A DNA stretch of 5,809 bases from a virus (IMGVR_UViG_2531839233_000007), one strand, 5' to 3'. Positions 1,875 to 2,636 are shown, numbered from the stretch's first letter. Made by a program: numbers and translations. The notes: generated from the sequence alone by a model not told the origin.

Positions 1875-2636
1875 TCACTTTTCCGACACAATACGACTGG
1901 AGGAATCGAAAATCTGTCGAACAATATCCCGGTGCTTGTTCAGCTCCCGCAGCGCGGCGCAGACTCGCTCCCACTTCTGGACATGATTTTTCGCCCGACG
2001 CAGTTCGCGGTTTGCCATATGCAGCGATGGTAAAACCAGGTCATCCGCTCGCGTTTCAGTAAACGATGGCAGCGACTGCACAATGTCCGCCACCGTTTCT
2101 GTTTTAATATCTTCCTGTGTTGCAGCCTCCTGTACTGGTAACGCAACACCTGTGGGCTGAGGAAAGGCCTTACCATCAGTTTCCGCTACCGATGCTGCTT
2201 TCGGCTCTGCTGGTAAATTATCGCCCGGTATGCAGTAACGAAATTTACCGTTCTGGTTTACGCGAATCAGGCGTCCTTTGCTGATAGCCATTGCCAGCGT
2301 TGAAGCTACTTTGCGTGATGTGGTACCGAACAATGTAGCCAACTCATCCGCCGTTTGTGGGCCACGTTGTTCAATCGTCGCGGTTAAATCGCACTCTGAG
2401 ATTTTCGCTACTGTTGCCATGGTGGTTTCTTCCGGCAGCTCTGCCGGCGCTGGCTGTTCCTGCTGAACGTTGTTATCAGCCACGCGCCAGGTGTATACGC
2501 TTTTATCAACGAAGCCAGCCTTTTTCAGTTCCCACAGCTCGTTCAGCACTTCTTCTCGACTGATATCAAGTCGCGTAGCCAGTTCTACCGACGTGGCTTT
2601 TCCCATCGCTTTCAGTGCGTCAAAAACGGTCTCCAT
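1875..2636 (-). CDS. prophage protein with two repeated winged-helix-like segments, 253 aa (possibly DUF1627-like)
   Basis: Internal ATG 2636..2634 preceded by GGGAGG; the track start at 2687 would overlap the upstream gene by 29 nt. Internal repeat visible in the translation: [32 protein letters not shown] and [35 protein letters not shown], joined by an acidic Q/E/P-rich linker. Confidence 0.7.

What the first reader, a model, noticed from the sequence alone, without database searches (positions are those of the whole stretch)
1875..2636. 253-aa protein with an internal duplication of a winged-helix-like unit at a lambda-atypical position
Two segments share the pattern ..T(S/A)xELATx(L/F)....(K/R)(A/V)...L....K(A/G) and are joined by an acidic Q/E/P-rich linker, followed by a basic C-terminal tail. 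This looks like a tandem DNA-binding protein; I could not assign a function, so it is a candidate accessory gene.
Basis: partly seen in the sequence, partly recalled or inferred. Interest (0 to 1): 0.4.

Follow-up and report, generated by a model that had tools for sequence, protein, structure and literature searches.

The report
Full-length YdaW (DUF1627) prophage protein
The ORF is a real, already catalogued prophage gene: the intact version of E. coli K-12's truncated ydaW (Pfam DUF1627), with two winged-helix domains and a long basic helix, sitting just after the phage replication genes; its function is still untested, so the finding is correct but ordinary.

Summary
The 253-aa ORF (window 1875-2636, minus strand) is real and under purifying selection. 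The identical protein is annotated in RefSeq as "DUF1627 domain-containing protein". It matches Pfam PF07789 (E 4e-101) and PHROG 630, and it is the full-length orthologue of the truncated Rac-prophage pseudogene ydaW of E. coli K-12.

There are two winged-helix units, related at profile level (hhalign E 2e-8) and in the AlphaFold2 model. They are joined by a disordered acidic linker. A second acidic linker, a conserved IPxFT..DDLIIP peptide and a 48-residue basic helix follow.

New details:
- WH1 is acidic and the most constrained part.
- WH2 is basic and resembles the lambda Ren winged helix.
- The WH2-type unit occurs 0-2 times across the family.

The gene always sits directly after the last replication gene, whatever its type. 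It usually neighbours a Ren-like gene, so it occupies the lambda "ren slot".

No characterised replication, recombination, defence or structural family matches. The function is unknown. My best guess (about 0.3) is an oligomeric adaptor that protects early lytic development from abortive-infection systems, as Ren does. The rivals are a transcription factor and a replication accessory. The family is already known, so interest is low to moderate.

The parts
1875..2636 (-). Complete CDS (253 aa plus TGA stop at 1875-1877): full-length YdaW / DUF1627 protein
   Evidence: ORF list. Pfam PF07789, 335.6 bits against a cutoff of 28.1; phrog_630 full length, E 4e-130. RefSeq CDS at the same coordinates. 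95% identical over aa 1-151 to the K-12 ydaW fragment.
2643..2649 (-). Ribosome-binding site GGAGGAA, 6 nt upstream of the ATG at 2634-2636
   Evidence: Read from the sequence. The gene starts 22 nt after the stop of the DnaC-like gene, so it is co-transcribed in the early rightward operon (inference).
2472..2636 (-). WH1 (aa 1-55): acidic winged helix, the most conserved part of the family
   Evidence: AlphaFold2 pLDDT about 90, H4-11, H16-23, H27-40, E43-45, E50-52. Net charge -2, third helix -1. dN/dS 0.06. Sub-threshold HTH_20/TrmB/Crp hits at aa 4-46.
2406..2471 (-). Linker 1 (aa 56-77): acidic, Q/E/P-rich, disordered
   Evidence: pLDDT below 50. Net charge -4. dN/dS 0.39. Length and sequence vary in the family.
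2223..2405 (-). WH2 (aa 78-138): basic winged helix, Ren/MarR-like
   Evidence: pLDDT 84-89. Net charge +4, wing +5. Homologous to WH1 at profile level, E 2e-8. hhalign against the lambda Ren N-terminus: probability 78%, E 1.9e-5. Weak phrog_142 hit at aa 85-133. dN/dS 0.10.
2097..2222 (-). Linker 2 (aa 139-180): acidic, Pro/Ala-rich, disordered
   Evidence: pLDDT 30-39. Net charge -5. dN/dS 0.31.
2025..2096 (-). Conserved peptide motif region (aa 181-204): ..(S/T)(I/L)PxFT..R.DDL(I/V)(I/L)P(S/T)
   Evidence: P190 and P203 are nearly invariant in 44 diverse homologues. A short helix at 182-188, otherwise low pLDDT.
1878..2024 (-). C-terminal basic amphipathic helix (aa 205-253)
   Evidence: Single helix 205-252, pLDDT 84-92. 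Net charge +5, pI 10.8. Conserved hydrophobic residues at 208, 212, 219, 222, 225, 229, 232, 239, 242, and R213 nearly invariant. No relative in PDB or Pfam outside DUF1627.
2659..3405 (-). Context: upstream DnaC-like helicase loader (ydaV)
   Evidence: NCBIfam PRK12377, 508 bits; phrog_50.
1437..1859 (-). Context: downstream DUF977 protein, a homologue of lambda Ren
   Evidence: PF06163, E 6e-28; phrog_142, E 1.8e-45. Lambda Ren hits phrog_142 at E 1.6e-41. The two share the C-terminal ECRxSxAMxRVLAxY motif, blastp E 2e-6.

Best explanation
Identity (confidence about 0.95). This is the intact form of the Rac-prophage gene ydaW (Pfam DUF1627, PHROG 630). It is an early-operon gene of lambdoid prophages of Enterobacterales. 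It occupies the 'ren slot', directly after the replication genes.

Anatomy (shown). The protein is built like beads on a string:
- an acidic, strongly conserved WH1;
- a disordered acidic linker;
- a basic Ren/MarR-like WH2, present 0-2 times in relatives;
- a second disordered acidic linker;
- a conserved IPxFT..DDLIIP peptide;
- a 48-residue basic amphipathic helix.

Mechanism (inferred, confidence about 0.3). After derepression of the early rightward promoter, the protein is made together with the replication proteins. It oligomerises or docks through the C-terminal helix. It contacts nucleic acid with WH2 and the basic helix, and a protein partner with WH1. It would act like lambda Ren: it would not carry out replication, but would shield the early lytic and replication phase from abortive-infection or exclusion systems of the host or of resident prophages, such as retron toxins or Rex-type systems.
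For: Identity and anatomy:
- Family matches and annotation.
- Domain homology, structure and charges.

Slot:
- In 80 close loci the upstream gene is a DnaC-like loader (66), a lambda-P-like protein (7) or a DnaB-like helicase (3). The downstream gene is the Ren-like DUF977 in 68 of 70.
- In species-level loci from Escherichia, Salmonella, Serratia, Enterobacter, Raoultella and Citrobacter, the gene again follows the last replication gene. In Raoultella a Ren-like small winged-helix protein lies in between.
- Lambda has ren at this position.

Link to Ren:
- WH2 resembles the winged helix of Ren.
- Ren interacts with Rex proteins in a two-hybrid assay (bioRxiv 10.1101/2021.04.19.439022).

Functional lead:
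- The K-12 ydaW fragment is 95% identical to aa 1-151 (WH1-linker-WH2).
- It scored as a blocker of the retron-Sen2 toxin RcaT in a genome-wide overexpression screen (bioRxiv 10.1101/2020.06.22.160242).

Accessory and diverse:
- Next to a 96-100% identical loader, the gene is only 36-100% identical.
- It is absent from lambda and truncated in K-12.
Against: - No direct test of any activity of the full-length protein exists.
- The retron-blocker result is a screen hit. It was not dissected for ydaW, it came from a truncated fragment, and it sat among blockers that include ordinary regulators and chaperones, so it could be indirect.
- PADLOC shows only sub-threshold hits to HTH parts of CARF/Csa3 regulators.
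- The winged-helix domains are under strong purifying selection (dN/dS 0.06-0.10). That does not look like an arms-race interface.
- The gene is almost constant in its lineage (78 of 80 loci). This fits a housekeeping phage role as well as a counter-defence role.
- The similarity to Ren is weak and confined to a generic fold.
- Ren's own function is poorly defined.
Confidence: 0.3

Rival explanations
1. Sequence-specific transcription regulator. A dimer held by the C-terminal helix binds operator DNA through its winged-helix domains and regulates phage or host genes during early lytic development.
For: - The winged-helix fold is the commonest bacterial DNA-binding fold.
- Sub-threshold hits to ArsR, TrmB, Crp and MarR-type HTH families.
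- Foldseek hits to MarR and ArsR regulators.
- WH2 and its wing are basic.
- K-12 YdaW is listed as a MarR-type transcription factor of unknown function (PMC4797297, PMC9308461).
Against: - No HTH family reaches its curated cutoff.
- The best-conserved domain, WH1, has an acidic third helix.
- Long disordered linkers and a variable number of winged-helix units (1-3) are unusual for an operator-binding regulator.
- The gene has no promoter or operator space of its own (22 nt and 15 nt junctions).
- The only striking palindromes in the window track the initiator gene type, not this gene.
Confidence: 0.25
2. Replication accessory factor. It modulates origin firing, helicase loading or the switch of replication mode, by binding phage DNA and a host replisome component through its conserved C-terminal peptide and helix.
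For: - It lies invariably immediately downstream of the last replication gene, across at least four replication-module types, with tight operon junctions.
- Tandem winged-helix domains are common in initiators and replisome organisers (general knowledge).
- Thomason et al. describe ren, the gene in the same slot, as likely involved in DNA replication.
Against: - No similarity to any replication family.
- Its independence from the loader, helicase or initiator type argues against a specific phage partner.
- Lambda, which I checked, lacks it; P22 does too, from my own knowledge, and both replicate without it.
- The origin-like palindromes belong to the initiator type.
Confidence: 0.22
3. Decaying or functionless prophage ORF. 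The repeat-like pattern would be chance.
For: - The single-sequence repeat score is not significant.
- K-12 carries only a truncated copy.
Against: - dN/dS is 0.19 overall and 0.06-0.10 in the domains.
- Full-length copies occur in 1326 complete E. coli genomes and in inducible phages.
- The architecture is conserved down to about 25% identity.
- Profile and structure evidence support both domains.
Confidence: 0.02

Closest known systems
YdaW of the E. coli K-12 Rac prophage (Pfam DUF1627 / PF07789; PHROG 630)
   Same: Same family and same locus. 95% identical over aa 1-151, directly downstream of ydaV. The full Pfam and PHROG profiles are matched.
   Different: The K-12 copy is a pseudogene. 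It is cut after about 151 codons by a deletion that joins it to a lysis gene. The window carries the intact 253-aa form, with the second linker, the conserved peptide and the basic helix.
Lambda Ren and DUF977 (PHROG 142, 'Ren-like exclusion protein')
   Same: Same genomic slot, immediately after the replication genes in the early rightward operon. A small winged-helix domain plus a C-terminal tail. WH2 resembles the Ren winged helix weakly.
   Different: The target lacks Ren's C-terminal ECRxSxAMxRVLAxY motif, which the neighbouring DUF977 gene has. It has an extra acidic WH1, long linkers and a different C-terminal module. It is not a member of PHROG 142 (only E 5.5e-4 over 49 residues).
MarR/ArsR/TrmB-type winged-helix transcription factors
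   Same: Three-helix plus beta-hairpin fold. Single-domain superpositions at 1-3 A rmsd. Weak HMM hits.
   Different: All hits fall below the curated cutoffs. There are no MarR-type flanking dimerisation helices and no ArsR metal site. WH1 has an acidic third helix. The domains are separated by disordered linkers.
Tandem winged-helix adaptor proteins (ScpB, ESCRT-II subunits, the SelB C-terminus)
   Same: The best whole-chain Foldseek matches are proteins with two or more consecutive winged helices that mostly bind proteins or RNA rather than operators.
   Different: Sequence identity is 14-16%. Whole-chain TM-scores normalised by the query are about 0.2. The two domains do not share the fixed mutual orientation seen in those proteins (pTM 0.28). 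This is a resemblance of architecture only.

Membership tests
DUF1627 / YdaW (PF07789, PHROG 630) | Match to the family HMM above the curated threshold, over the whole profile | tested here: met
   PF07789: 335.6 bits against a cutoff of 28.1, profile positions 1-155 of 155. phrog_630: positions 1-252 of 253, E 4e-130.
DUF1627 / YdaW (PF07789, PHROG 630) | Orthology with K-12 ydaW: same position downstream of ydaV and high identity | tested here: met
   95% identity over 151 aa. Both lie directly after ydaV.
DUF1627 / YdaW (PF07789, PHROG 630) | Family architecture: N-terminal [12 protein letters not shown] winged helix plus the C-terminal IPxFT..DDLIIP..REIRRTK helix | tested here: met
   Alignment of 44 representatives sharing 20-71% identity with the window protein.
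Winged-helix DNA-binding transcription factors (MarR/ArsR/TrmB/Crp HTH) | Winged-helix fold | tested here: met
   AlphaFold2 pLDDT 84-93 for both units. Foldseek single-domain rmsd 1-3 A.
Winged-helix DNA-binding transcription factors (MarR/ArsR/TrmB/Crp HTH) | Family HMM above the curated cutoff | tested here: not met
   HTH_20: 25.1 against 27. TrmB: 22.1 against 25.6. HTH_Crp_2: 22 against 27. ArsR NCBIfam: 23 against 55.
Winged-helix DNA-binding transcription factors (MarR/ArsR/TrmB/Crp HTH) | Basic DNA-contacting recognition helix and wing, and actual DNA binding | tested here: inconclusive
   WH1 third helix has mean charge -1.4 and wing -1.1. WH2 third helix has +1.8 and wing +3.5. Binding itself cannot be tested with these tools.
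Lambda Ren family (PHROG 142 / DUF977) | Significant full-length match to the family profile | tested here: not met
   Only E 5.5e-4 over aa 85-133. hhalign of WH2 against Ren gives probability 78%.
Lambda Ren family (PHROG 142 / DUF977) | C-terminal ECRxSxAMxRVLAxY motif | tested here: not met
   Absent from the target. Present in the neighbouring DUF977 protein and in Ren.
Lambda Ren family (PHROG 142 / DUF977) | Position directly after the replication genes in the early rightward operon | tested here: met
Core lambdoid replication or recombination proteins (O/P, DnaC/DnaB-like, DnaD/replisome organiser, NinB, RusA) | Confident sequence or fold match | tested here: not met
   No such hit in Pfam, PHROG, NCBIfam, PDB sequences, PDB folds or viral folds.
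Known anti-phage defence proteins (PADLOC) | Match to a defence-system model | tested here: not met
   Only weak hits (E >= 1.4e-4, below 20 bits) to the HTH parts of CARF/Csa3 regulators.

The most novel reading that the evidence does not exclude
YdaW/DUF1627, alone or together with the neighbouring Ren-like DUF977 protein, is a counter-defence cassette of lambdoid prophages. Its array of winged-helix modules on flexible linkers would bind and neutralise abortive-infection effectors, such as the retron toxin RcaT or Rex-type proteins. The number of WH2-type modules (0-2) would tune the range of targets.
Probability: 0.2. Interest if true: 0.6.

Novelty: already known. Interest (0 to 1): 0.25.

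Why it matters
The gene is very common. Its DNA is found in 2781 of 5426 complete E. coli genomes, with up to 9 matching places per genome, including Shiga-toxin phages and prophages of STEC strains. No function is assigned to it.

Placing it in the lambda 'ren slot', defining its modular anatomy and linking it to a published retron-toxin blocker hit gives a concrete, cheap hypothesis to test.

If the counter-defence reading held, it would add a widespread anti-abortive-infection factor and shed light on the long-obscure role of Ren. If not, it remains one more conserved early phage protein of unknown function.

Tried and rejected
1. Single-sequence test of the internal repeat. It was not significant. 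The claim rests on profile and structure evidence instead.

2. Sequence search of the PDB with the whole protein and with a profile of the C-terminal module. There were no relatives.

3. Pfam scan of the C-terminal module. It matched only DUF1627.

4. NCBIfam and PADLOC. Nothing reached a threshold.

5. Foldseek against PDB and viral models. Only generic winged-helix and tandem winged-helix hits appeared.

6. The three GTAACGC-N5-GCGTTAC palindromes as candidate YdaW operators. Rejected:
   - They occur in all 64 loci with this initiator type, regardless of the YdaW allele.
   - They are absent from 71 of 78 loci that have a >=90% identical YdaW but a different initiator.
   - They are absent from K-12 Rac.

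7. Plasmid collection. It gave 15 records, nearly all E. coli, with nothing informative beyond the DUF1627 label.

8. Rfam. No RNA family matched in the window.

9. Locus scans with the diverse alignments A2 and A3. They failed for lack of a conserved 7-10 residue stretch. Single proteins and an N-terminal alignment were used instead.

10. The published (Nature) version of the retron paper is not held.

11. A resemblance of DDLIIP to the MutL clamp-binding motif QPLLIP, and of IPxFT to the IPPGFRG tail of the initiators. I recalled or noticed these, but they are too short to test here, so no weight is placed on them.

Full report
WHAT IS THERE

The window is the immunity and replication region of a Rac-like lambdoid prophage of E. 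coli. It is 99.7% identical to NZ_CP027331, where the prophage sits at ttcA next to intR, recET and kil.

All early genes run on the minus strand:
- a Cro/YdaS-like gene (4697-4951);
- a YdaT/CII-like gene (4278-4700);
- an O-like initiator (3412-4200);
- a DnaC-like loader, ydaV (2659-3405);
- the target (1875-2636);
- a DUF977 gene (1437-1859);
- several small ORFs.

A 139-aa HTH_3 repressor is divergent, at 5031-5450 on the plus strand.

The target's 253-aa frame is exactly the RefSeq CDS WP_000450712.1, 'DUF1627 domain-containing protein'. It has a GGAGGAA ribosome-binding site. It starts 22 nt after the ydaV stop and ends 15 nt before the DUF977 start. It therefore belongs to the early rightward operon, which is an inference. 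No promoter-like or terminator-like site stands out around it.

CHECK OF THE OBSERVATION

The two segments share the TSVELAT / TADELAT core. On the single sequence the local alignment score is not significant: 30 against 22.9 +/- 4.1 for shuffles, with 143 of 2000 shuffles at least as high.

With sub-alignments from 44 diverse homologues, the two units match over their whole length. hhalign gives probability 95.3% and E 2.2e-8 over 53 columns. Neither unit matches the C-terminus.

AlphaFold2 on a 51-sequence alignment gives the following:
- two confident winged helices, aa 1-55 (pLDDT about 90) and aa 78-138 (pLDDT 84-89);
- disordered stretches at 56-76 and 140-179;
- a short helix at 182-188;
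- one long helix at 205-252 (pLDDT 84-92);
- pTM of 0.28, so the domains are not fixed relative to each other.

Foldseek against the PDB and against viral models returns only winged-helix proteins. These include tandem winged-helix adaptors (ESCRT-II, ScpB, SelB) and single MarR, ArsR, FeoC and AspA domains at 1-3 A rmsd.

Two features were missed: the second linker and a conserved peptide at aa 181-204.

WHAT IT IS

The protein matches Pfam DUF1627 (PF07789) at E 4e-101, covering the whole profile on aa 88-242. It matches PHROG 630, a family of unknown function, over its full length.

The K-12 Rac pseudogene ydaW is the same gene. It is 95% identical over aa 1-151, then cut by a deletion that joins it to a lysis gene.

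The gene is common:
- its DNA is found in 2781 of 5426 complete E. coli genomes, and 1326 of them have a match covering at least 80% of the gene, with up to 9 matching places per genome;
- the exact protein occurs on at least 1000 contigs;
- 24 deposited phage records carry it, including Rac-SA53, the PPompW phages and the Stx phages 75/02 and POCJ13.

The family itself is small. It gives 177 clusters at 50% identity among 1.84 billion representatives. Apart from one hit labelled Plasmopara halstedii (P0323) and a copy in an Actinobacillus phage record, every named source is Enterobacterales: Escherichia, Shigella, Salmonella, Citrobacter, Enterobacter, Cronobacter, Pantoea, Serratia, Raoultella and Buttiauxella.

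ANATOMY ACROSS THE FAMILY

The constant parts are WH1 and the C-terminal module. WH1 begins with the nearly invariant [20 protein letters not shown]. The C-terminal module reads (S/T)IPxFT..R.DDLIIP(S/T)...REIRRTKxKLxxLEKLRxAVRxxxKH.

The WH2-type unit varies in copy number:
- absent in proteins of about 117-169 aa (for example P0142, P0148, P0190, P0270);
- present once in most members;
- present twice in proteins of 308-311 aa (P0248, P0184).

Charges averaged over 44 homologues:
- WH1: -2.2, with a third helix at -1.4;
- WH2: +4.0, with a wing at +3.5;
- second linker: -4.2;
- C-terminal helix: +6.3.

Pooled pairwise dN/dS over 74 close alleles:
- WH1: 0.06;
- WH2: 0.10;
- the two linkers: 0.39 and 0.31;
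- peptide motif: 0.19;
- C-terminal helix: 0.34.

The gene is therefore under purifying selection, strongest on WH1. The pairs are not independent, so these are descriptive values only.

The hydrophobic positions of the helix recur every 3-4 residues. This fits a coiled coil or a docking helix, which is an inference. The C-terminal module has no relative in the PDB or in Pfam outside DUF1627.

GENOMIC SLOT

I examined 80 viral-contig loci whose copy is at least 93% identical to the target. The upstream gene is:
- the DnaC-like loader in 66;
- a lambda-P-like protein in 7;
- a DnaB-like helicase in 3.

The downstream gene is DUF977 in 68 of 70.

I also examined 80 loci whose loader is 96-100% identical to the window's:
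- 78 carry a DUF1627 gene directly downstream, but it is only 36-100% identical to the target;
- one copy is N-terminally truncated;
- one is destroyed by an AT-rich insertion.

In species-level genomes the gene again follows the last replication gene:
- an initiator alone in Citrobacter;
- an initiator plus DnaC-like loader in Enterobacter, C. braakii and Cronobacter;
- a lambda-P-like protein in Salmonella and E. albertii.

In Raoultella a 97-aa Ren/MarR-like protein lies between the initiator and the DUF1627 gene. In Serratia a 157-aa Lpa-like winged-helix protein lies between the lambda-P-like replication gene and the DUF1627 gene.

The window's DUF977 protein is a Ren homologue. It and lambda Ren both hit PHROG 142, at 1.8e-45 and 1.6e-41. 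They share the C-terminal ECRxSxAMxRVLAxY motif. In lambda, ren overlaps the end of P.

So the target occupies the 'ren slot', next to Ren-like genes and independently of the replication-module type.

HOW IT MOST LIKELY WORKS

Nothing identifies an enzymatic or known regulatory activity.

The following is shown:
- modular winged helices on flexible acidic linkers;
- an acidic, conserved WH1 and a basic WH2;
- a basic C-terminal helix;
- co-location, and presumably co-expression, with the replication genes;
- neighbourhood with Ren-like genes;
- high allelic diversity next to a conserved loader.

From the literature:
- The K-12 fragment (WH1-linker-WH2) was a hit among prophage 'blockers' of the retron-Sen2 toxin RcaT in a genome-wide overexpression screen. 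Only racC was followed up (10.1101/2020.06.22.160242; also cited in PMC11951105).
- Lambda Ren interacts with Rex proteins in a two-hybrid assay and is described as likely involved in replication (10.1101/2021.04.19.439022).
- YdaW is listed as a MarR-type transcription factor of unknown function.

My best reading (about 0.3) is an oligomeric adaptor that protects early lytic development from abortive-infection or exclusion systems, as Ren is thought to do. A transcription-factor role (about 0.25) and a replication-accessory role (about 0.22) are close rivals. The evidence for and against each is given in the structured fields. A functionless ORF is excluded by the selection and conservation data.

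COMPARISON AND NOVELTY

Membership of DUF1627/YdaW is met on every criterion tested.

Membership is not met for the following:
- the Ren family, because of a weak partial match and the missing Ren C-terminal motif;
- curated HTH regulator families, because all hits are below cutoff;
- replication or recombination families;
- defence families.

The gene and its family are already known and annotated. What this work adds is descriptive:
- the identity with full-length YdaW;
- the domain charges;
- the variable number of WH2-type units;
- the constancy of the ren slot.

NOTICED IN PASSING

Three perfect GTAACGC-N5-GCGTTAC palindromes lie at 3815-3833, 4022-4040 and 4214-4232, where none is expected by chance. 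They track the initiator gene type, not the DUF1627 allele. They are probably origin or initiator sites.

VERDICT

The feature is an already known family of unknown function. Interest is 0.25.

Noticed in passing
window 3815-3833, 4022-4040, 4214-4232: Three perfect 19-nt palindromes GTAACGC-N5-GCGTTAC, about 200 nt apart, lie inside and just upstream of the O-like initiator gene. None is expected by chance. They occur in all 64 related loci with this initiator type, whatever the DUF1627 allele, and are absent from K-12 Rac. They are probably origin or initiator-binding sites.
   Followed up: partly
window 1437-1859 (minus strand): The downstream DUF977 gene is a homologue of lambda Ren. Both hit PHROG 142 and share the C-terminal ECRxSxAMxRVLAxY motif. 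It has a roughly 50-residue basic insertion between the winged helix and the motif.
   Followed up: partly
L139 4801-7266: In one prophage with a 98% identical loader, the DUF1627 gene is cut after about 20 codons by an AT-rich insertion. The insertion carries two opposite-strand ORFs (181 aa and 491 aa) and looks like a moron or defence-island insertion.
   Followed up: no
L003 7094-9825 (also L004-L006); L172 6004-8073: Directly downstream of DUF1627 in Citrobacter lie opposite-strand genes for a 516-aa AAA_15/AAA_21 ATPase and a 298-aa protein. In E. ruysiae a 689-aa protein (phrog_13260, unknown function) follows. The slot appears to be a hotspot for inserted cargo, possibly defence systems.
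   Followed up: no
L003/L004/L006 5379-5978 (199 aa); L005 4994-5542 (182 aa): In these Citrobacter prophages the gene before DUF1627 encodes a 199-aa protein (182 aa in L005) with no Pfam hit, in place of a recognisable loader or helicase. One locus also has an HNH endonuclease inserted upstream.
   Followed up: no
window 5031-5450 (plus strand): The divergent repressor is only 139 aa. It has an HTH_3 domain and no S24 peptidase domain, so induction is unlikely to work by RecA-stimulated self-cleavage as in lambda CI.
   Followed up: no
PP818812.1 10084-10821 (H32): An Actinobacillus pleuropneumoniae phage record carries a 70% identical DUF1627 gene. This is an unexpected host for a family otherwise seen only in Enterobacterales.
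   Followed up: no
proteins P0127 (339 aa) and P0137 (313 aa): These are chimeric proteins. A replication-initiator N-terminus is fused in frame to the DUF1627 C-terminal part, probably through deletions that removed the loader gene.
   Followed up: no
C-termini of the initiators: window 3412-3438 (minus strand); L172, L177, L178, L179, L182, L183: Initiators with different N-terminal domains share a C-terminal tail ..IP(P/E/K)GFRG. The window's initiator also gives a weak hit to the last 19 residues of primosomal protein DnaT. This may be a docking peptide for a host replication protein.
   Followed up: no
window 869-1086 (minus strand): RefSeq marks a frameshifted DUF4014 pseudogene here in the near-identical genome.
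   Followed up: no
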